This document shows, piece by piece, positions 18,779-26,595 of a stretch of 64,000 bases of DNA. A program made the position numbers and the translations under genes. The notes beneath the pieces are model-generated. The model made no database searches. It saw nothing but the letters and a program-made list of their open reading frames with translations, and was not told where the DNA came from. This DNA is from an uncultured beta proteobacterium (GTDB lineage Bacteria; Pseudomonadota; Gammaproteobacteria; Burkholderiales; SG8-39), in contig CAVWFR010000011.1 in assembly GCA_963754305.1 (NCBI GenBank), forward strand, positions 194,505 through 258,504. Reading direction: 5' to 3'. Numbering within the stretch: position 1 is the first letter of the stretch; every line of letters begins with the position of its first letter.

Positions 18779-19360
18779 ATGAACTGTTCTTCCCCGATCG
18801 CGCTATCGCGCCGCACCTTCCTCGGCCGCGCAGGCGCTGCAACGCTCTCGACCGCCGCCGTCGCCCTGCTTGCCGGCAACCAGGCCATCGCGCAAGGCGG
18901 CTCCGCCACCATGCAGGACGTAAACATCCTCAACGTCGCGCTCGGCCTCGAGCACGAGGCGATCAACGCGTATCAGCTCGGCGCGATGTCCGGCCTCCTG
19001 CAGAAGCCGGTCCTCGAGGTCGCGGTGCTCTTCCAGGGCCATCACAAGGGCCATCGGGACGCGCTGATCGCGACCATCCGGAAGATGGGCGGCACGCCGG
19101 TCGCGGAGAAATCGCTCGACGAGTACGCGAAAGCGCTGCGTGCCGACACGCTCAAGTCGCAGGGCGACATCCTCGAGCTCGCGGCGCGGCTCGAGCTCGG
19201 TGCGACCAACGCTTATCTCGGCGTGATTCCGGCGTTCAAGGACGCCGGGCTCGCCAAGGTCGCCGGCCGGCTCGCGGCGGACGAGACGATGCACTGGTCG
19301 ATCCTCTCGAATGCGATGGGCAAGCCGCTGCCGATGGCGGCGCTAACGTTCGGCGCGTAA
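18779..19360 (+). CDS. Tat-exported ferritin-like domain protein
   Basis: SRRTFL Tat motif; LEHEA..Y, H..H, LE.GA..AY, DE..H diiron-type ligands. Confidence 0.85.
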   Translation: MNCSSPIALSRRTFLGRAGAATLSTAAVALLAGNQAIAQGGSATMQDVNILNVALGLEHEAINAYQLGAMSGLLQKPVLEVAVLFQGHHKGHRDALIATIRKMGGTPVAEKSLDEYAKALRADTLKSQGDILELAARLELGATNAYLGVIPAFKDAGLAKVAGRLAADETMHWSILSNAMGKPLPMAALTFGA

Positions 19361-19365
19361 GCACG

Positions 19366-19403
19366 CCCCACCCGAACCCTCCTCCGTCCGGCGGGGGAGG
19401 GAG
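19366..19403. repeat. Short palindromic intergenic repeat (ccccacccgaaccctcc..ggggagggag)
   Basis: Hairpin between the ferritin-like and cytochrome c genes. Confidence 0.45.
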
Positions 19404-19409
19404 AAGGAG

Positions 19410-19769
19410 ATGACGATGATGCGCATCGTCCTCGCGGCGCTCGCCCTCGCCGGCGGCGCCGCGAACGCCGCGGATGCGGCGCGCGGGCGCGAGCTCTACG
19501 AGACCCGCTGCATCGCCTGCCACTCGATCGACGCGAATCGCGTCGGCCCCGCGCATCGCGGCGTCTTCGGCCGCAAGGCCGGCAGCGTCCGCGACTACGA
19601 CTATTCGCCGGCGCTCAGGAGCGCGCGCGTGGTCTGGAACACGCAATCGCTCGAGCGCTGGCTCGCCGACCCCGAGAAAACGATCCCCGGGCAGCGGATG
19701 GGCTACTCGGTCGCCGGGGCGGCCGACCGCGCCGATCTCGTGGCGTACCTGCGCACCCAGGCAGAGTAG
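19410..19769 (+). CDS. Class I cytochrome c (c2-like)
   Basis: Signal peptide, CIACH, GP.H.GVFGR.AG, PGQRM. Confidence 0.93.
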   Translation: MTMMRIVLAALALAGGAANAADAARGRELYETRCIACHSIDANRVGPAHRGVFGRKAGSVRDYDYSPALRSARVVWNTQSLERWLADPEKTIPGQRMGYSVAGAADRADLVAYLRTQAE

Positions 19770-19818: not shown

Positions 19819-20964
19819 TTGCCGCTCGCGCTGATCTTCACCGTCACCGCTCTCACGCATCTCGCGTTCGCAGGCGCGCGCGTCTCGGTGGCGCTGCTCG
19901 CGCTGCACCTCGGCGCCTCGGCGGCGGTGGTCGGGGTGCTCGCCGCGCTGTTCGCGGCGCTGCCGATGTTCTTCGCCGTCCCGGCCGGCCGCGCGATCGA
20001 CCGCATCGGCGCGTTCAGGCCGATGCTCGCCGGCTCGGTGGCGGTCGCCGGCGGTTGCGTGGCCGCGTTCGTCTGGCCGACTTTGGAGGCGTTGTACGCG
20101 GTGACCGTCGTGATCGGGTCGGGCGCGATGCTGTCGCACATCGCCTCGAACAACATCGGCGGCTCGATCGGCACGCCGGCGGACCGGCCGCGCAACTTCA
20201 CCCTGATCGCGCTCGCGTTCTCGGTCGCGACCTTTGGCGGGCCGGTGCTCGCCGGCGTGGCGATCGACGGCCTCGGCCATGCGCGTGCCTTCCTCGTCCT
20301 CGGCATCGTGGCGGTCCTCTCGCTCTGCGCCATCATCGCCGGACGATCGCGGTTTCCCCCGCCCGCGCGCGCCGCCGGCCCGCGCGGGGAGCGCCGCATG
20401 ATCGATCTCCTCCGCGTCCGCGCCGTGCGCCACGTGCTCGGGGCCGGCGCACTCCTCGCGATGACCTGGGAGATCTTCGTATTCGCGGTGCCGATCTACG
20501 GCACCGGGCTCGGCCTGTCGGCGAGCACCATCGGCGCGATCCTCGGCGCGTTCGCCTTCGCGACCCTGGTCGTGCGCATGCTATTGCCGGCGATCGCGCG
20601 GCGCGCTCGCGAGTGGACGCTGATCGCAGTGGCCTATGCGGTCGCGGTGGCGGTGTTCGCCGCGTTTCCGCTGGTGCGGCAGGCGCCGCTCCTGATGGGG
20701 CTCGGGTTCGTGCTCGGCCTGGGGCTCGGCATGACGCAGCCGATGCTGATGTCGCTCCTCTACGCGGCGGCGCCGGAAGGACGCTCGGGCGAGGCGGTCG
20801 GCATCCGCACCGGCATCATCAGCCTCTCGCAGACCGCGATGCCGCTCTTCTTCGGCGCGATCGGCGCCGTGCTCGGGATCGCACCGGTCTTCTGGGCGAT
20901 GGCGCTCGTCCTCGCCGGCGGCACCGCTTTCGCGCGCGCGCGGGCGCGGCCCCCGGCCGAATGA
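19819..20964 (+). CDS. MFS transporter
   Basis: About 12 TM segments, GRAIDRIG motif A; TTG start after TAGAAT. Confidence 0.88.
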   Translation: MPLALIFTVTALTHLAFAGARVSVALLALHLGASAAVVGVLAALFAALPMFFAVPAGRAIDRIGAFRPMLAGSVAVAGGCVAAFVWPTLEALYAVTVVIGSGAMLSHIASNNIGGSIGTPADRPRNFTLIALAFSVATFGGPVLAGVAIDGLGHARAFLVLGIVAVLSLCAIIAGRSRFPPPARAAGPRGERRMIDLLRVRAVRHVLGAGALLAMTWEIFVFAVPIYGTGLGLSASTIGAILGAFAFATLVVRMLLPAIARRAREWTLIAVAYAVAVAVFAAFPLVRQAPLLMGLGFVLGLGLGMTQPMLMSLLYAAAPEGRSGEAVGIRTGIISLSQTAMPLFFGAIGAVLGIAPVFWAMALVLAGGTAFARARARPPAE

Positions 20965-21097
20965 CGACGTGCGCCTACGTGCGCACGCCGCTTTCGCGCG
21001 CGGCGCGCCCCACGACGATGCGGAAGACGTGATCAAGGCCGCCGACAAGGCGCTCTATCGAGCGAAGCGGGGCGGGCGGAACCGGGTCTCGCGCTAG
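20961..21097 (+). pseudogene. Relic of a diguanylate cyclase (start joined to last ~30 codons)
   Basis: ATG overlapping the MFS stop, then out-of-frame EDVIKAADKALYRAKRGGRNRVSR* (canonical GGDEF C-terminus). Confidence 0.75.
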
Positions 21098-21137
21098 CGC
21101 GGGATTCGCGCCGGTAGCGTCGAGACCAGCGAGCGCG

Positions 21138-22025
21138 CTACTCGCAGGAGAACTCGACCACCGTCGCGTCCGCGTCGCCGGTGCGATGACCGAGCCCGAT
21201 GCGCCCGCGCGCGCGGAGCATCAGCTCCTCGCGTCGCAGGCACACTTCGGCCTCGCCTGCGATCGCGACGAACGTGCCGTTCGAGCTGTGGTCGACGATG
21301 ACGAACTTGTCCCGGCGCTTCTCGATGCTCGCGTGCTGGCGCGAGGCCTTGCGGTCGCCGACGACGATGTCGCAGATCGCCTCGCGGCCGAGCCCGACCT
21401 GGCCGGAGCCGGCGCCGTCGAACCACAGCTCGCGGTCACCGTAGGCGAGCCGCAGCCGCGGGACGCGCTCCTCGCGAAAGCGCGTGCCGAGCGTGGTGAT
21501 CTCCTCGGAGTCCTGCCACACGAACTCGTAGATCTCCAGCGGCTCCCGCTTGCCCTTGACCGTGACGCGGTCGAGCATGCGCACCTTGTCGCGCGCGGGG
21601 CCGGCGAGACGCGCGACCACTTCCTGGGTGGCGATGATCTGGCCGACCTTGGCGAGCCCCGCGACGCGCGCGGCGGCATTCACGCAGTCGCCGTAGAGAT
21701 CGCCGGCGTCCTCGATCACCGCACCGTAGTGGCAGCCGACATGAATGCCGAGCGCGGGGCCGCCGAGCGCCGTCTGCTCGAGCACCCGTACGTGCATCGT
21801 GCGCGCGGCCTGGAGGGCCGCATCCGCGTCGACGAAGGCGCACATCAGCCCGTCGCCGGTCGACTTGATCACCCGGCCCTTGAGGTCGTTCGCCGCATGC
21901 TGCAGCAGCCGCAGGCAGCTCGCGACCCGCGCGAGCGCATGGGCGTCGCCGAGCTCCTCGTAGAGCCGCGTGCTGCCGCTGATGTCGACGAAGAGCACCG
22001 TGCAGAGCGAGGGGGCGGCGGCCAT
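21138..22025 (-). CDS. Class III adenylate cyclase with C-terminal FHA domain
   Basis: FVDISGST, KSTGDG, DLYGDCVNAAAR; FHA motifs LGR, ASRQHA, SSNGTFV. Confidence 0.92.
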   Translation of the reverse strand: MAAAPSLCTVLFVDISGSTRLYEELGDAHALARVASCLRLLQHAANDLKGRVIKSTGDGLMCAFVDADAALQAARTMHVRVLEQTALGGPALGIHVGCHYGAVIEDAGDLYGDCVNAAARVAGLAKVGQIIATQEVVARLAGPARDKVRMLDRVTVKGKREPLEIYEFVWQDSEEITTLGTRFREERVPRLRLAYGDRELWFDGAGSGQVGLGREAICDIVVGDRKASRQHASIEKRRDKFVIVDHSSNGTFVAIAGEAEVCLRREELMLRARGRIGLGHRTGDADATVVEFSCE

Positions 22026-22275
22026 TGGCGAAAGAGGACGTGGCGGGAAGAGGGTACGAGGTCGCCGCAGGCTAGGGGTTCAAGCGATCGGGGTTCAGAT
22101 TGGGGTCCAGCGATCGGGGTTTCGTGATAGGCGCTTTGCGAATGGTATAGGGAATGCCGGCGCGCGAAGGCGAAACCGGCGCTTGCCCGGACGGGGCCTA
22201 CCCCAAACGCTGCGGCGGCGGAAGCCGTCGAACGGCTAATGCAAACCGTCGATAAGGTGCCGTTCCTAAAGGCGA

Positions 22276-22305
22276 TTGACGCGGAATGGCACCCGCGCCT
22301 AGTAT
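22276..22305 (+). promoter_or_regulatory. Putative sigma70 promoter for the FecR-DUF3365-kinase operon
   Basis: TTGACG-N18-TAGTAT. Confidence 0.4.
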
Positions 22306-22408
22306 CAGCCGGTAGGCCCGCACCGGTCGCGCGGGCGGAGGTTTTCCGGCGGCTCGTGCGAGGGATTGAAGCGGGTGGTGTCGCGGGACGTCGGGAAAGG
22401 AACGGGGT

Positions 22409-23329
22409 TTGCGGGCAGGTCTCGCTCAGAGAGTGCTGGGAGCGCTGGCGCTGGCGGGCGTCGTTGCCGTTGCCGTCGCCGCGGAACCGCCGGCCGTCGT
22501 CACGCTGCTCGAGGGCCAGGCTGCGCTATTGCGCGGCATGGTGCGCTACGCGCTCGCCGAGGGCGTGCGGCTGCAGGCCGGCGACATCGTGGAGCTCGGC
22601 GACAAGGGCGCGGCGCAGGTCGAGTTCGCCGACGGGTTCGTCCTCAGCCTGGGCCCGAAGGCCCGCTTCTTCCTCGGAGTGCTCGCCACCCGGGCCGCGA
22701 AAACCGGCGGCATCTCCGATCTCTACATCATGCAAGGGTGGACGAAGCTCACGTCGGCGAAGACCGCGGCGCCGGTGCGCATCACGACGCCGATGTTCGG
22801 CATCGCCACGGCGGATGCGACGGCGGTGATGCAGCTTGCCGACGGCGAGGGCGCGCTATTCGTCGAAACGGGCGAGGTGCGCGTCGCCGAGGGGTTCGTG
22901 AAGGCCGGCCCCACCAGCGCGGTGCGGCTCAAGGGCGGCGAGTTCTTCGCCCGCAAGGTCGACACGAAAGGTGCGATCGCGGCGCGGCCCGCAGCGGCCT
23001 TCGTCACGGCGATGCCCAAGCCTTACCTGGACAACCTGCCACCGCGGCTCGCGAAGCACAAGGACCGCGAGGTCACGCCGCGGGCGACCGGCGACCTCGT
23101 TTACGCCGACGTCGAGTTCTGGCTCAAGGCGCCGCCGGAGATCAGACGCCCGCTCATGCAGCGCTTCATCCCGAAGGCGCACGACCTCGCTTTTCGCCAG
23201 GCCCTGGTCGCGAACCTGAAGTCCCACCCGGAGTGGGACCCGATCCTGTTCCCGGAAAAATACAAGCCGAAGCCGCCGCCCGAGCCCTCGACCGTGCAGG
23301 AAGCCGGCGGGCGGCGGCCCGCGAACTGA
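22409..23329 (+). CDS. Exported FecR-domain-like protein with helical C-terminal extension
   Basis: Signal peptide; VTLLEG, EGVRL..GDIV, VEFADG..L.LGP, ITTP, LFVETG; C-terminal HPEWDPILFPEKY. Confidence 0.75.
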   Translation: MRAGLAQRVLGALALAGVVAVAVAAEPPAVVTLLEGQAALLRGMVRYALAEGVRLQAGDIVELGDKGAAQVEFADGFVLSLGPKARFFLGVLATRAAKTGGISDLYIMQGWTKLTSAKTAAPVRITTPMFGIATADATAVMQLADGEGALFVETGEVRVAEGFVKAGPTSAVRLKGGEFFARKVDTKGAIAARPAAAFVTAMPKPYLDNLPPRLAKHKDREVTPRATGDLVYADVEFWLKAPPEIRRPLMQRFIPKAHDLAFRQALVANLKSHPEWDPILFPEKYKPKPPPEPSTVQEAGGRRPAN

Positions 23330-23354
23330 CGCGCCAGAAAGAGAGAGCTCCGAA

Positions 23355-24227
23355 ATGAAGCTGATCCTCAAGTTCAACATCGTGTTCATCGCGATCTTCC
23401 TGATCGGGCTGGGGGCGGCCGGCTACGTCTCTAACCAGCTGCTGCAGAACAACGCCCGCGAGGAAATCCTGCAGAACGCCCGCCTGGTGATGGAGACCTC
23501 GCTCGCGACGCGCGCCTACACCTCGGGCCAGATCCGCCCGCTCCTCGAGACGCAGATGAAGTACAGCTTCCTGCCGCAGTCGGTGCCGTCGTACTCGGCG
23601 CAGGAAGTGCTGGGGGGCTTGCGCAAGAAGTTCCCCGAGTACGCGTACAAGGAAGCGACGCTGAACCCGACCAACCCGCGCGACCGGGCGGTGGACTGGG
23701 AAGCCGATATCGTCAACCAGTTCCGCGCGAGCCCCGACCGGGCCGAGATCATCGGCGAGCGCGACACCCCCAGCGGCCGCTCGCTGTACATCGCGCGCCC
23801 GATCCAGATCAAGGACCCCAACTGTCTGCCATGCCACAGCACGGTCGACGCCGCGCCGAAGACCATGGTGGACAAATACGGTCCGGCGAACGGCTTCGGC
23901 TGGCAGCTGAACGAGATCATCGGCGCGCAGGTGGTGTCGGTGCCGACCGACGTGCCGATCCAGCGCGCGCAAGCCGCCTACCGCACGTTCATGATCTCGC
24001 TCACCGCGGTGTTCATCTTCATCGGCATCGCGCTCAACCTGATGCTGTTTGCCATGGTGATCCGGCCGGTGACGCGGCTCTCGAAGCTCGCCGACCAGGT
24101 GAGCATGGGCAGCATGGATGTCCCCGACTTCAACGTCGGCGCCAAGGACGAGATCGGCAAGCTCGCCGAGTCGTTCAACCGGATGAAGAAGAGCCTGGTG
24201 CAGGCGATGAAGATGCTGGAGGACTGA
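23355..24227 (+). CDS. Membrane sensor: TM - DUF3365 (Tll0287-like c-heme) - TM - HAMP, no output domain
   Basis: LNPTNPRD.A..WE, CLPCH heme-binding site, GFGW, second TM, HAMP (IRPVTRL..DEIGKLAESFNRM), stop about 13 aa later. Confidence 0.88.
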   Translation: MKLILKFNIVFIAIFLIGLGAAGYVSNQLLQNNAREEILQNARLVMETSLATRAYTSGQIRPLLETQMKYSFLPQSVPSYSAQEVLGGLRKKFPEYAYKEATLNPTNPRDRAVDWEADIVNQFRASPDRAEIIGERDTPSGRSLYIARPIQIKDPNCLPCHSTVDAAPKTMVDKYGPANGFGWQLNEIIGAQVVSVPTDVPIQRAQAAYRTFMISLTAVFIFIGIALNLMLFAMVIRPVTRLSKLADQVSMGSMDVPDFNVGAKDEIGKLAESFNRMKKSLVQAMKMLED

Positions 24228-24275
24228 TCACTTGATTCGGCACTGCAACGCGGGTCGCGCCGGCGGCGACGGACG

Positions 24276-25721
24276 ATGGCTACCGTAGACCGTCTCGGCA
24301 AGTACGAAGTCACCGAGGTGCTGGGCAAGGGCGCCATGGGGGTGGTGTACAAGGCGTTCGACCCGAACATCCGCCGCACGGTCGCGATCAAGACCATCCG
24401 GAAGGAACTGATCGAGGACGATCGCGGCCATTCGCTCCTCGCGCGGTTCAAGAACGAGGCGCAGGCCGCGGGCCGGCTCGCGCACCCGGGCATCGTCGGA
24501 GTGCACGAATACGGCGACGAAGGCGACCTCGCCTATATCGCGATGGAGTACGTGCAGGGAAACAGCCTGCGCGAATACTTCAACCGCGGCACGCGCTTCG
24601 AGACCCGCGACGTCGTGAGCATCACGGCGCAGCTCCTCGACGCGCTCGCCTACGCGCACGAGCAGGGCGTCTGGCACCGCGACATCAAGCCGGCCAACCT
24701 GATCATCATGACCAACGGCCGGCTGAAGATCGCCGACTTCGGGATCGCCCGCATCGACTCCTCGAACCTGACGCAGATCGGCGCGGTGATGGGCACCCCG
24801 GGGTACATGGCGCCCGAACAGTACGCCGGGCAGGACGTCGACTGGCGCGCCGACATCTTCGCCTCGGGCGTGGTGCTGTACCAGCTCCTGTGCGGGGTCA
24901 AGCCGTTCGCCGGCAGCACCGAAGCGGTCGCCTACAAGGTCTGCTACGAGCACCCGCCGCTGCCCTCGCAGGTCGACCTGGGGCGCGTTCCGGCGGCTTA
25001 CGATGCGGTGGTCGCAAAGGCGATCGAGAAGAAGCCCGTGAAGCGCTTCCAGAACACCAATGAGTTCCGCGCGGCGCTGCTCGCCGCCTATGCCGCGCCG
25101 CTCAGCCCGACGGTGTCCGAAGAGACGATCATCACCGAGATCATCCCGACGACGATCCGGGTCGAGCCGACGAGCCCTTCCAACGCCTCTCACTCGACCC
25201 CGAACGACGGCACGCCGTCCACGCCCAAGACCACGCAGCCGCCGCCGGGCTGGGACCCGGCGGTGCTGAAGGCGATCGAGGGCAACCTCGCGCGCTTCGT
25301 GGGACCGGTGGCCAAGGTCATGCTCAAGCGCGCCGCGCTGCAGACGACCGATGTCGATTCGGTCTACGGCATCCTCGGCGAGCAGCTCACGGGTGCCGAC
25401 GAGCAAAAGCAGTTCCTCGCCACCCGCGCCAAGGTTCCCGGCGCGCCGCCGCCGAAGGCGCTCGCGAGCACGCGCACCGTCGCGATCGAGGCCGGCACCA
25501 TGCTGGCGGCCAAGGCCGCCGGTGCGCCGCTCACCGCCGACATGATCGCACTCGCGACGCGCAAGCTCACCATTTACGTCGGTCCGATCGCGAAAGTGAT
25601 CGTCAAGAAGGCGGCCGGACAGGCTTCCACCTCGCGGCAGTTCTACCTGCTGCTCGCCGACAGCCTCAGCTCCGACGCCGAGCGCGCGAAGTTCCTCGAC
25701 GAGCTCGGCGCCGGGCACTAG
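24276..25721 (+). CDS. Hanks-type Ser/Thr protein kinase, soluble, with duplicated C-terminal helical repeat
   Basis: GKGAMG, VAIK, HRDIKPAN, DFG, GTPGYMAPE; Pro/Thr linker; repeats LARFVGPVAKVMLKRAA and LTIYVGPIAKVIVKKAA. Confidence 0.95.
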   Translation: MATVDRLGKYEVTEVLGKGAMGVVYKAFDPNIRRTVAIKTIRKELIEDDRGHSLLARFKNEAQAAGRLAHPGIVGVHEYGDEGDLAYIAMEYVQGNSLREYFNRGTRFETRDVVSITAQLLDALAYAHEQGVWHRDIKPANLIIMTNGRLKIADFGIARIDSSNLTQIGAVMGTPGYMAPEQYAGQDVDWRADIFASGVVLYQLLCGVKPFAGSTEAVAYKVCYEHPPLPSQVDLGRVPAAYDAVVAKAIEKKPVKRFQNTNEFRAALLAAYAAPLSPTVSEETIITEIIPTTIRVEPTSPSNASHSTPNDGTPSTPKTTQPPPGWDPAVLKAIEGNLARFVGPVAKVMLKRAALQTTDVDSVYGILGEQLTGADEQKQFLATRAKVPGAPPPKALASTRTVAIEAGTMLAAKAAGAPLTADMIALATRKLTIYVGPIAKVIVKKAAGQASTSRQFYLLLADSLSSDAERAKFLDELGAGH

Positions 25722-26595
25722 CGCGGCCGGAGCCGAGCAGGCGTTCGAGCGTCGCGGTCTCGCCGGGCGCGAGCGTCCCTTTCTCGAGCGCGATCGGAAC
25801 CACCCGCGACGCGAGCTCGCGGTAGAAGTCCAGCGTGCGCTCGTCGAGCGCCCCGAGCGCGCGCAAGTGCCGCTGGACGGTACCCGTGTCGCCGCGCGCG
25901 ATCGGGCCGGCCAGACCCGCCACGGTACCGGCTTGCGCGATCGCGTCGAGCGTGCCGCGCGCGAGCGGCACCAGCGCCGCGAGCGCCTCGCTCTCGGTCA
26001 TCCCGAAGCCCCGCCAGATCCGCACCGCTTCGTGCAGCAGCGTGGTGACGAACGGTGCGGCAAAGCTCCCGGCACAGTGGTAGAGCGCGCGGGCGCCATG
26101 AGGAAGCCGGATCGGTCGCGCGCCGAGCGCGTGCGCGAGCCGCTCGAGTGAGCCCGCGAGCGGCCCGTCGGCCTCGATCGCGACCGCACAGCCGGCGAGC
26201 CCCGCGAGCGCCGTCTCGGGATCGGCGAAGTTCTGTAGCGGGTGGAAACCACCGATCGCGGCGCCGCGCGCCGCCGCGGGCGCGAGCACCGCGACCTCGG
26301 TGGCGCCGCTGCAGTGCGCGACCGCCTGTCCGGTCCGCCAGACGAGCCCCGCGGCGGTCCGCGCGATCGCATCGTCGGGAACGGTGAGGAAGACGAGATC
26401 GGCGCCGTCCGCCGCCGCTTGCGGGCTCGCGCAAACGTTGCAACCCGCGACCGAGTCGGCGAGCGCGCGAGCGCGCTCGAAGGTGCGGCTTGCGACGCCC
26501 GTCACCGGATGTCCGGCACGGGCGAAGCCTCGCGCGAGCGCGCTCGCGACGCGGCCGGCACCGATGAAGGCGATCGCGGGAAGAGCGGCGGTCAT
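25666..26595 (-). CDS. Rossmann-like / DUF2520 oxidoreductase
   Basis: IGAGRV, TVPDDAI, HCSGA, FHPLQ, LYH, GPIARGD. Confidence 0.88.
   Translation of the reverse strand: MTAALPAIAFIGAGRVASALARGFARAGHPVTGVASRTFERARALADSVAGCNVCASPQAAADGADLVFLTVPDDAIARTAAGLVWRTGQAVAHCSGATEVAVLAPAAARGAAIGGFHPLQNFADPETALAGLAGCAVAIEADGPLAGSLERLAHALGARPIRLPHGARALYHCAGSFAAPFVTTLLHEAVRIWRGFGMTESEALAALVPLARGTLDAIAQAGTVAGLAGPIARGDTGTVQRHLRALGALDERTLDFYRELASRVVPIALEKGTLAPGETATLERLLGSGRASARRRARRGTSRARRRS

What the first reader, a model, noticed from the sequence alone, without database searches (positions are those of the whole stretch)
21138..25721. Candidate split receptor-kinase system: c-heme DUF3365-HAMP sensor without output + soluble Ser/Thr kinase + FecR-like partner + FHA-adenylate cyclase
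Seen: three co-oriented genes separated by 25 and 48 nt (exported FecR-like protein; TM-DUF3365(CLPCH)-TM-HAMP that stops about 13 aa after the HAMP; intact Hanks kinase with no TM segment), divergent from a class III cyclase carrying an FHA domain. Established: HAMP domains normally pass signal to a fused kinase, cyclase or MCP output; FHA domains bind phospho-Thr; the Lys/Asp specificity residues (KSTGD, DLYGD) indicate ATP as substrate. Inference: the heme sensor signals in trans to the kinase, whose Thr-rich linker or substrates recruit the FHA cyclase, giving a periplasmic redox/gas or ligand signal -> pThr -> cAMP relay with no His kinase. I am not aware of such a relay being characterised.
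Basis: partly seen in the sequence, partly recalled or inferred. Interest (0 to 1): 0.75.

Follow-up and report, generated by a model that had tools for sequence, protein, structure and literature searches.

The report
Heme sensor, docked kinase, gated cyclase
These genes encode a relative of a recently described bacterial heme (nitric-oxide-binding) membrane receptor with its docked protein kinase, plus two undescribed extras: a periplasmic protein that probably binds the tip of the receptor, and a cAMP-making enzyme that is a plausible but untested output.

Summary
All four genes are real. The core is not new. An output-less Cache_heme-HAMP (CHH) receptor that docks a soluble Ser/Thr kinase through two C-terminal repeats was characterised in Pseudomonas azotoformans (bioRxiv 10.64898/2026.05.25.727664).

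Not in that paper's main text:
(1) The FecR-like gene occurs in 74 of 80 related loci. A model docks it on receptor residues 65-71 (score 0.64, best control 0.20), and these residues best separate FecR-linked from unlinked receptors.
(2) The FHA-cyclase has an intact catalytic site and phospho-Thr pocket and a linker Thr invariant in 55 of 55. It is linked in only 21 of 80 loci, and 57 of 352 receptor-less genomes also have it.
(3) Elsewhere the same repeats are fused to a different class III cyclase; 25 of 27 such metagenome loci follow a CHH gene.

The published HAMP phospho-Thr has no counterpart here. A heme-to-pThr-to-cAMP relay is plausible (about 0.5) but untested. This scan reported the same module earlier on other genomes. 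Verdict: new variant of a known kind.

The parts
21138..22025 (-). Class III adenylate cyclase (res 5-172) with a C-terminal FHA domain (res ~190-295)
   Evidence: Pfam PF00211 + PF00498. Window catalytic set D14, K54, D58, D109, N116, R120. K54 in 49 of 55, D58 in 55 of 55; FHA G213, R214, S228, R229, H231, N249 in 55 of 55.
21495..21497 (-). Thr177 in the cyclase-FHA linker (W-Q-D-S-E-E-I-T): candidate phosphosite and FHA ligand
   Evidence: Thr in 55 of 55 aligned homologues, acidic at -2 in 54 of 55; positions 178-190 are variable. Function inferred.
22276..22305 (+). Sigma-70-like promoter (TTGACG-N18-TAGTAT) for the FecR-like/receptor/kinase operon
   Evidence: The only promoter-like match in 20900-26000 (1 found, 0.3 expected). 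A similar -35/-10 pair is visible by eye in most related divergent gaps, with a conserved AGTATA facing the cyclase.
22409..23329 (+). Exported FecR-like protein: PupR-type periplasmic beta domain plus its own helical cap; no anti-sigma domain; probable co-receptor
   Evidence: PF04773 in 35 of 69 homologues. Model pLDDT 92. Fold matches PupR CCSSD 6OVM_R (Z 14.8, rmsd 2.7, 136 aligned) and BDI_1681. Complex model.
23355..24227 (+). CHH receptor: TM - Cache_heme (DUF3365/Tll0287-like, CLPCH) - TM - HAMP, no output domain
   Evidence: C157, C160 and H161 are invariant in 59 aligned homologues. Most of the 120 best database hits are 290 aa.
23547..23567 (+). Receptor apex motif ETQMKYS (res 65-71): predicted binding site of the FecR-like protein
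   Evidence: Interface. Y70 is in 100% of 90 FecR-linked vs 11% of 53 unlinked receptors; T66 97% vs 9%; ranks 1 and 2 of 290 columns.
24276..25721 (+). Soluble Hanks-type Ser/Thr kinase with a Thr-rich linker (SEETII 281-286) and two C-terminal docking repeats
   Evidence: VAIK, HRD, DFG and APE intact. 38% identical over full length, repeats included, to Pseudomonas kinase P0194, which carries the published motif IGPLARFLVRKSLN.
25251..25433 (+). Docking repeat 1 (DUF8082/PF26309; VGPVAKVMLKRA)
25533..25712 (+). Docking repeat 2 (DUF8082/PF26309; VGPIAKVIVKKA)

Best explanation
A receptor kinase assembled from separate proteins, of the published CHH-STPK kind, with a periplasmic co-receptor and a phospho-Thr-gated cAMP output.
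(1) The receptor is a membrane dimer with a periplasmic c-heme that binds NO or another heme ligand. Shown for the P. azotoformans protein; inferred here (~0.7 for NO-like ligands).
(2) The kinase is held on the HAMP by its two DUF8082 repeats. Shown in P. azotoformans; inferred here (~0.9).
(3) The exported FecR-like protein binds the apex of the receptor dimer at residues 65-71 and tunes or clusters it. Model plus covariation (~0.7).
(4) The activated kinase phosphorylates Thr in acidic-x-Thr-hydrophobic motifs: its own linker (EETII) and Thr177 between the cyclase and FHA domains. The FHA reads this pThr, which recruits or dimerises the cyclase and switches cAMP synthesis. Inferred (~0.5; the sign of the switch is unknown).
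The HAMP phosphosite mapped in Pseudomonas cannot be the FHA dock here, because the window connector has no Thr.
For: Core: the whole main text of the preprint; full-length kinase match including repeats; repeats in 71 of 80 loci. Co-receptor: present in 74 of 80 loci, directly upstream in 90 of 143 scored receptors. Its contact residues E129 and P179 (numbering of alignment A2) are invariant and G153, D184, P187 are at least 90% conserved; apex columns rank 1, 2 and 6 of 290. Cyclase: invariant pThr pocket and linker Thr in 55 of 55; kinase-linker Thr motif in 23 of 24 cyclase-linked vs 55 of 97 other kinases. An FHA partner recurs: FHA-cyclase in 25 and T6SS TagH/TagF/TssM in 27 of 145 loci, never both. 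Cyclases recur as outputs in other forms: cyclase-DUF8082 right after CHH in 7 of 64 genome loci and in 25 of 27 metagenome loci, 4 of them kinase-cyclase-repeat fusions.
Against: The FHA-cyclase is divergent, has its own promoter and is absent from 59 of 80 loci (about 7 of these too short upstream to tell). It occurs in 57 of 352 genomes without a CHH match, and this genome has three such cyclases, one beside another kinase. The divergent linkage may be a single ancestral event; the tree did not show more than one origin and its careful search was unfinished. The invariant Thr is equally present in unlinked FHA-cyclases, so it points to some kinase, not this one. The DUF8082-fused cyclases are another subfamily, lacking the Lys/Asp adenine residues, so they support 'a cyclase output' and not this enzyme. 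The preprint's authors think it unlikely that the receptor modulates the catalytic domain directly, and their phosphosite has no Thr counterpart here, so how signal reaches the kinase in this clade is open. Apex covariation is confounded by descent. No expression, binding or enzyme data exist for these proteins.
Confidence: 0.5

Rival explanations
1. The three-gene operon works as described, but the FHA-cyclase is a general reader of phospho-Thr from any of the genome's many Hanks kinases. It sits here by shared ancestry and is not controlled by the heme sensor in particular.
For: Own divergent promoter. Missing from most loci. Present in 57 of 352 genomes without CHH. Three paralogues in this genome, one next to a different kinase. 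At least 10 other kinase matches in this genome. One origin of the linkage is not excluded.
Against: The linkage is kept across several families while the cyclases diverge to about 45% identity. A second arrangement puts it directly behind the kinase (L131). Genome-level enrichment is 29 of 49 vs 57 of 352 (kin not independent). It is mutually exclusive with T6SS FHA genes.
Confidence: 0.35
2. The main input is an envelope or protein signal sensed by the FecR-like partner, as in T6SS TagQRST-PpkA switches. The heme acts as a redox or NO modulator, or as a relay, not as the primary sensor.
For: The slot upstream of the receptor is held by unrelated exported proteins in different clades: FecR-like (90 loci), caspase-like plus peptidoglycan-binding (22), a 160-aa protein (7). 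Each clade has its own apex motif. Many loci lie in T6SS clusters.
Against: CXXCH is invariant. The Pseudomonas receptor responds to NO in vitro without any partner. Many receptors have no recognised upstream partner.
Confidence: 0.25
3. Receptor and kinase are one gene split by a nonsense change or read through at the TGA.
For: They are in frame across a single TGA in the window. A few longer database entries join the two (P0206, P0207).
Against: In frame in only 31 of 116 relatives; the stop codon varies. The joined entries have out-of-frame text in place of TM2/HAMP and the repeats, so they are frameshift artefacts. The kinase lies upstream of the receptor in some loci.
Confidence: 0.02

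Closest known systems
CHH receptor and docked Ser/Thr kinase of Pseudomonas azotoformans (Deshpande, Xu, Dunleavy, Zhulin, Crane; bioRxiv 10.64898/2026.05.25.727664; whole main text read, supplement closed)
   Same: TM-Cache_heme-TM-HAMP without output; adjacent soluble PknB-like kinase without TM or PASTA; two C-terminal GP(I/L)A helical repeats. Window kinase is 38% identical over full length to a Pseudomonas kinase bearing the published motif.
   Different: No Thr at the start of the HAMP connector (Thr256 there). No PP2C gene in this locus. FecR-like partner and FHA-cyclase present; 'FHA', 'forkhead' and 'FecR' occur 0 times in the paper's main text. The paper leaves the downstream target unknown.
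sCache_heme (DUF3365/Tll0287) family, signalling cluster 2 (bioRxiv 10.64898/2026.02.01.703092; abstract, passages, sections 9 and 12 read; supplements of version 1, PMC12889525, searched and one PDF read)
   Same: PF11845 with CXXCH, between two TM helices, followed by HAMP.
   Different: That paper lists cyclase outputs only as direct fusions, not as docked or FHA-linked proteins.
T6SS threonine-phosphorylation pathway PpkA-Fha-PppA-TagF (PMC5995506; passages read)
   Same: Hanks kinase, pThr, FHA reader logic. The mapped TssL site WQDLP-pT-VV resembles the cyclase linker WQDSEEI-T-TL. CHH-kinase pairs lie within T6SS clusters in other bacteria.
   Different: No TssM match in this genome. 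The kinase is soluble and docked, and the FHA is fused to a cyclase.
FecR/PupR cell-surface-signalling anti-sigma factors (PDB 6OVK/6OVM, 4M0H)
   Same: Periplasmic beta-sandwich fold, Z 14.6-14.8.
   Different: No cytoplasmic anti-sigma domain. No ECF sigma or TonB-dependent receptor gene seen beside it. A different C-terminal helical cap.
Cyanobacterial FHA-containing adenylate cyclases (Synechocystis Cya1, Anabaena CyaD): recalled, not confirmed by a call
   Same: FHA and class III cyclase in one chain.
   Different: As recalled, the FHA is N-terminal there. Searches returned no paper describing them or a kinase-gated FHA-cyclase.

Membership tests
CHH receptor-STPK pair | Periplasmic DUF3365/Tll0287 domain with CXXCH between two TM helices | tested here: met
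   PF11845 138.6 bits; CLPCH 157-161; two hydropathy peaks.
CHH receptor-STPK pair | Terminal HAMP with no fused output | tested here: met
   HAMP 234-282, end at 290; relatives end at the same place; no read-through pattern; no genuine HAMP-kinase fusion among 49 longer hits.
CHH receptor-STPK pair | Adjacent soluble PknB-like kinase with intact catalytic residues and no TM or PASTA | tested here: met
CHH receptor-STPK pair | Two C-terminal GP(I/L)A helical repeats | tested here: met
   Both repeats align to those of P0194; PF26309.
CHH receptor-STPK pair | Phospho-acceptor Thr at the start of the HAMP connector (Thr256; a property of the studied protein, not stated as family-defining) | tested here: not met
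   The window connector 251-263 has no Thr. The position (~254, Met) is inferred from the 292-aa length and domain bounds 33-199; the Pseudomonas sequence itself was not obtained. Ser250 and Ser253 are nearby.
CHH receptor-STPK pair | Covalent heme c, NO binding, nanomolar kinase binding | not testable with these tools
   The genome has three cytochrome c assembly matches (PF01578); binding needs experiments.
Class III adenylate cyclase | Two metal Asp, Lys and Asp/Thr adenine residues, Asn and Arg transition-state residues | tested here: met
   D14, K54, D58, D109, N116, R120 in the window; residue roles from established knowledge; activity not shown.
FHA phospho-Thr reader | G-R, S-x-x-H and N-G motifs | tested here: met
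   Invariant in 55 of 55.
FecR/PupR anti-sigma factor | Periplasmic FecR beta domain | tested here: met
FecR/PupR anti-sigma factor | Cytoplasmic anti-sigma domain before the TM helix, with a cognate ECF sigma gene | tested here: not met
   The hydrophobic segment starts at residue ~9; neighbours are the cyclase and the receptor. Not filed as an anti-sigma factor.
T6SS PpkA pathway | Linked T6SS core and TagH/TagF genes | tested here: not met
   None in this locus; no TIGR03348 match in G000, which is 100% complete (long queries can miss weak matches).
Pycsar pyrimidine cyclase (for the DUF8082-fused cyclases of relatives) | PycC profile match and UTP/CTP-selecting residues | tested here: inconclusive
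   Best PADLOC PycC match E 0.009 for 1 of 3 tested. The pocket (I/L/V-D-[TS]-G-D; N-x-x-G-D-x-I-N-x-A-Q-R) lacks the adenine Lys/Asp and does not obviously match the residues named in PMC11224242.

The most novel reading that the evidence does not exclude
CHH receptors are a plug-in platform. A clade-specific exported protein binds the receptor apex, and interchangeable enzymes dock on the HAMP through DUF8082 repeats: Hanks kinase, class III cyclase, kinase-cyclase fusion, TIR domain, and possibly an MscS-type channel. Kinase, cyclase and TIR are all switched by self-association, and the published stoichiometry is one docked chain per receptor dimer. The shared mechanism would then be ligand-driven pairing or release of docked enzymes. 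In this genome that yields a periplasmic NO to phospho-Thr to cAMP relay through an FHA-gated cyclase. In others it gives a direct NO to cyclic-nucleotide receptor built from two proteins, a bacterial counterpart of soluble guanylate cyclase with a possibly non-purine product.
Probability: 0.35. Interest if true: 0.8.

Novelty: new variant of a known kind. Interest (0 to 1): 0.52.

Why it matters
The 2026 preprint that defined the receptor-kinase pair states that its downstream consequences are unknown. This locus supplies concrete, residue-level candidates: a periplasmic partner with a predicted and covarying binding patch (T66/K69/Y70), and an FHA-cyclase with one invariant candidate phosphosite (Thr177). 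The survey also shows that the HAMP-docking repeat carries other enzymes, which changes the picture from one receptor kinase to a modular sensor platform. If confirmed, it would be a route from a periplasmic heme ligand to cyclic nucleotides without a histidine kinase, and a cyclase controlled by phospho-Thr. My ten literature searches found no description of either.

Tried and rejected
One read-through or frameshifted receptor-kinase gene: rejected.

Phospho-HAMP as the FHA dock: rejected for this clade, since the connector has no Thr. Invariant Ser250 (145 of 145) is kept also in kinase-less, cyclase-docked loci, so it is more likely structural.

FHA-cyclases 5-10 kb from CHH in family f96 as extra linkage: discounted, because L116 shows it heads another kinase cluster, like the paralogue on C26.

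Anti-sigma role for the FecR-like protein: rejected (no cytoplasmic domain, no sigma gene). T6SS control in this genome: no TssM match. PADLOC PD-T4-6 and MAD6 matches of the kinase cover the catalytic domain and linker only and were treated as generic.

PDB sequence searches found no relative of the repeats or of the FecR-like protein, and only HAMP domains for the receptor; the cryo-EM entries named in the preprint did not appear.

The P. azotoformans receptor sequence was not obtained from supplements, a 401-genome class search or representatives.

The careful tree search did not finish; only the quick tree was read.

Literature searches with no relevant paper: DUF3365 + type VI secretion (63), DUF8082 (64), uridylate cyclases + Linder (79), FHA + adenylate cyclase + kinase (85; only the T6SS paper was useful), slr1991 + FHA (120), FecR + Tll0287 (121), FHA/Cya1 (39, 91), cUMP (38), 2026 bioRxiv (106; only the known preprint). 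The library lacks most subscription papers, and the preprint's supplement (its neighbourhood figure S1) was closed and may show FecR or cyclase neighbours. No kinase-receptor complex was modelled, as the single job went to the open FecR question.
Full report
OBSERVATION. The four ORFs are at the stated coordinates with gaps of 25 and 48 nt and coding-like GC3 of 0.91-0.95. Pfam gives cyclase + FHA, FecR (just over the cut-off), Tll0287-like + HAMP, and Pkinase. The receptor has two hydrophobic segments and CLPCH at 157-161; the kinase and cyclase have none. The genome is a 6.7 Mb, 100% complete assembly whose best-matching loci are mostly Burkholderiales/betaproteobacterial MAGs. The ESM Atlas gave DUF8082 as a lead (scores 0.85-0.89), and precomputed Pfam labels on homologous repeat regions give PF26309.

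TWO GENES, NOT ONE. Receptor and kinase are in frame across one TGA. Among 116 related pairs 31 are in frame, about the third expected by chance, and the stop is TGA 82, TAA 19, TAG 15. Of 49 longer database hits, the entries that join a close relative to a kinase or cyclase (P0206, P0207) have out-of-frame text where TM2/HAMP and the repeats belong.

THE CORE IS KNOWN. bioRxiv 10.64898/2026.05.25.727664 (whole main text read; supplement closed) describes this architecture in P. azotoformans. The Cache_heme-HAMP receptor binds its operon kinase at about 90 nM through two C-terminal helical repeats, one kinase per receptor dimer, and NO increases phosphorylation of HAMP Thr256. The authors say the downstream consequences are unknown. 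'FHA', 'forkhead' and 'FecR' occur 0 times in that text. Pseudomonas kinase P0194 carries the paper's first motif exactly and the second with one change; the window kinase aligns to it over its full length at 38% identity, repeats included. I could not obtain the Pseudomonas receptor sequence. From its length (292 aa) and domain bounds (33-199), Thr256 falls near window residue 254, which is Met. The window connector has no Thr at all.

NEIGHBOURHOODS. In the 80 best genome loci (80 kept of 281), the FecR-like gene is present in 74, a kinase domain in 70, the repeat in 71 and the divergent FHA-cyclase in 21. About seven loci are too short upstream to show the cyclase. Six of eight other genomes of the genus hold the whole four-gene block. 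For an evener view I searched 401 genomes of the order (49 with a receptor match) and 130 of a distant family (35), and fetched 64 regions. Among 145 loci with a complete receptor, 25 have the FHA-cyclase and 27 have T6SS TagH/TagF/TssM-like genes, and none has both (the T6SS group is mostly Variovorax, so not independent; one of the 25, L116, is discounted below). Annotated plasmids show receptor and kinase inside T6SS clusters in Caballeronia, Skermanella and Paraburkholderia. This genome has no TssM match.

THE FecR-LIKE PROTEIN. The model (pLDDT 92) has a PupR-type periplasmic beta domain (Z 14.8, rmsd 2.7, 136 aligned) and its own helical cap; there is no cytoplasmic anti-sigma domain. 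A complex prediction with two copies of receptor residues 28-208 scored 0.64 against a best control of 0.20. That mark was reached by 116 of 157 solved and 2 of 215 mismatched pairs, counts that hold only roughly for this job; runs shared at least 92% of contacts and partner pLDDT was at least 86. It supports binding but does not show it. The interface is receptor 65-71 on both copies against partner residues that include its invariant E129 and P179 (alignment numbering). As a separate check I split receptors into 90 with an adjacent FecR-like gene and 53 without (2 dropped for short flanks). Of 290 columns, the two that best separate the groups are Y70 (100% vs 11%) and T66 (97% vs 9%); K69 ranks sixth. 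Descent confounds this, but the ranking singles out the predicted patch. Other clades put unrelated exported proteins in the same slot (caspase-like + peptidoglycan-binding in 22 loci, a 160-aa protein in 7), each with its own apex motif.

THE FHA-CYCLASE. The catalytic set is complete and of the ATP type (D14, K54, D58, D109, N116, R120; roles from established knowledge). In 55 aligned homologues, linked and unlinked, the pThr-binding residues G213, R214, S228, R229, H231 and N249 are invariant. So is Thr177 in the linker, with an acidic residue at -2 in 54 of 55, while residues 178-190 vary freely. The mapped PpkA site in Agrobacterium TssL, WQDLP-pT-VV (passage in PMC5995506), looks alike. 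A similar motif follows the kinase domain in 23 of 24 cyclase-linked kinases and 55 of 97 others (a loose pattern). Against a dedicated link: the gene is divergent with its own promoter elements; it was found in 86 of the 401 genomes, 29 of 49 with a receptor match and 57 of 352 without (3 of the 49 receptor matches are partial; kin not independent); this genome has three copies; and the quick tree does not show more than one origin of the divergent arrangement. L131 has it directly behind the kinase, a second arrangement. The f96 cases were discounted.

THE REPEAT IS A PORTABLE DOCK. In 7 of the 64 fetched regions, from two families including this genome's own, the gene after the receptor is a class III cyclase fused to the two repeats, with no docked kinase in the region. 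Of 81 database hits to such a repeat region, 28 carry PF00211 + PF26309 and one carries TIR_2 + PF26309 (the query biases this count). A metagenome scan seeded on cyclase motifs returned 80 loci (best of 521). 27 have the repeat in the same ORF and 25 of these follow a receptor gene (one exception has 9 nt upstream, the other a single repeat match). Of the 53 without a repeat only one follows a receptor, and its contig ends before the C-terminus; 31 of the rest had at least 1200 nt upstream. Four are kinase-cyclase-repeat fusions. These cyclases keep the metal Asp residues and the N...R motif but lack the adenine Lys/Asp; their product is unknown and the PycC test was inconclusive. They are a different subfamily from the window's cyclase, so they argue for cyclic nucleotides as a recurring output of this receptor, not for this enzyme in particular.

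MECHANISM. Shown elsewhere: heme c, NO binding, repeat-HAMP docking. Inferred here: the same docking (~0.9); apex binding by the FecR-like protein (~0.7); kinase phosphorylation of Thr177 and of its own linker, read by the FHA to switch cAMP (~0.5). How ligand binding activates the docked enzyme is open, since the published phosphosite is absent. Kinase, cyclase and TIR all depend on self-association (recalled for Hanks kinases; passages in PMC11224242 for cyclases and TIR) while one chain docks per receptor dimer, so pairing or release of docked enzymes is the simplest shared mechanism. This is inference.

EARLIER NOTES. I looked these up only after the results above. Agents of this scan reported the same four-gene module on two other genomes, and the kinase-cyclase, odd-pocket, TIR and T6SS variants on others. 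They agree with my reading but are not independent evidence.

VERDICT. A new variant of a system first described in 2026. The added value is a testable co-receptor patch, a testable phosphosite and the modularity of the dock. Interest 0.52.

Noticed in passing
G000:C6:16635-17507 (L011), with upstream L011:1220-1440: A second receptor copy, 81% identical, with no kinase beside it, preceded by only the 3' remnant of a FecR-like gene: a partial duplication. L017 and L022 are similar orphans.
   Followed up: partly
G000:C26:112165-113043 and 111614-112111: A third receptor (50% identical, different apex motif) followed by a stand-alone 165-aa two-repeat protein with no enzyme domain: a possible adaptor or competitor for the HAMP dock.
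   Followed up: partly
L133:5172-6854 (-): The gene after a divergent receptor encodes an MscS-type channel (PF00924) whose C-terminal part, which by eye resembles a degenerate cNMP-binding domain, holds one repeat-like insert: a possible channel output. One locus only.
   Followed up: partly
L221:2936-5164, L238:523-2760, L253:823-3000, L262:2936-5200: Kinase-cyclase-repeat-repeat fusions directly after the receptor; L202 and L208 carry both a repeat-bearing kinase (or its end) and a repeat-bearing cyclase around one receptor.
   Followed up: partly
L136:6390-6890 and homologues (L113, L114, L122, L124, L134, L135, L193-L208): A ~160-aa exported protein with no Pfam match and a conserved LRFWP motif sits upstream of receptors that dock cyclases: a candidate alternative co-receptor.
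   Followed up: partly
L210-L271 (metagenome): The same odd-pocket cyclase without repeats is followed by a Ser/Thr kinase in 34 of 53 loci; earlier scan notes call this a cyclase-PEGA/lipoprotein/kinase operon.
   Followed up: no
G000:C26:131715-135167: A paralogous FHA-cyclase beside an 820-aa membrane kinase with CsgG-like neighbours (label by eye); the same arrangement appears in family f96.
   Followed up: partly
G000:C6:20657-21640 and C24:176127-177110: Two near-identical FecR-like paralogues ending in what looks by eye like a peptidoglycan-binding domain, not adjacent to a receptor.
   Followed up: no
window 18779-19769: A Tat-like-leader ferritin-like (Ferritin_2) gene next to a small cytochrome c gene, 1.4 kb from the cyclase; not among the recurrent neighbours.
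   Followed up: no
L063:6930-10208 and L075:6978-9866: In Acidobacteriota loci the repeats sit at the end of long TPR-rich kinase proteins encoded convergently to the receptor.
   Followed up: no
L188 (Rippkaea plasmid NC_011721.1:47395-50884): A cyanobacterial output-less receptor with a divergent PhnD/SsuA-type binding protein and three identical 97-aa genes downstream.
   Followed up: no
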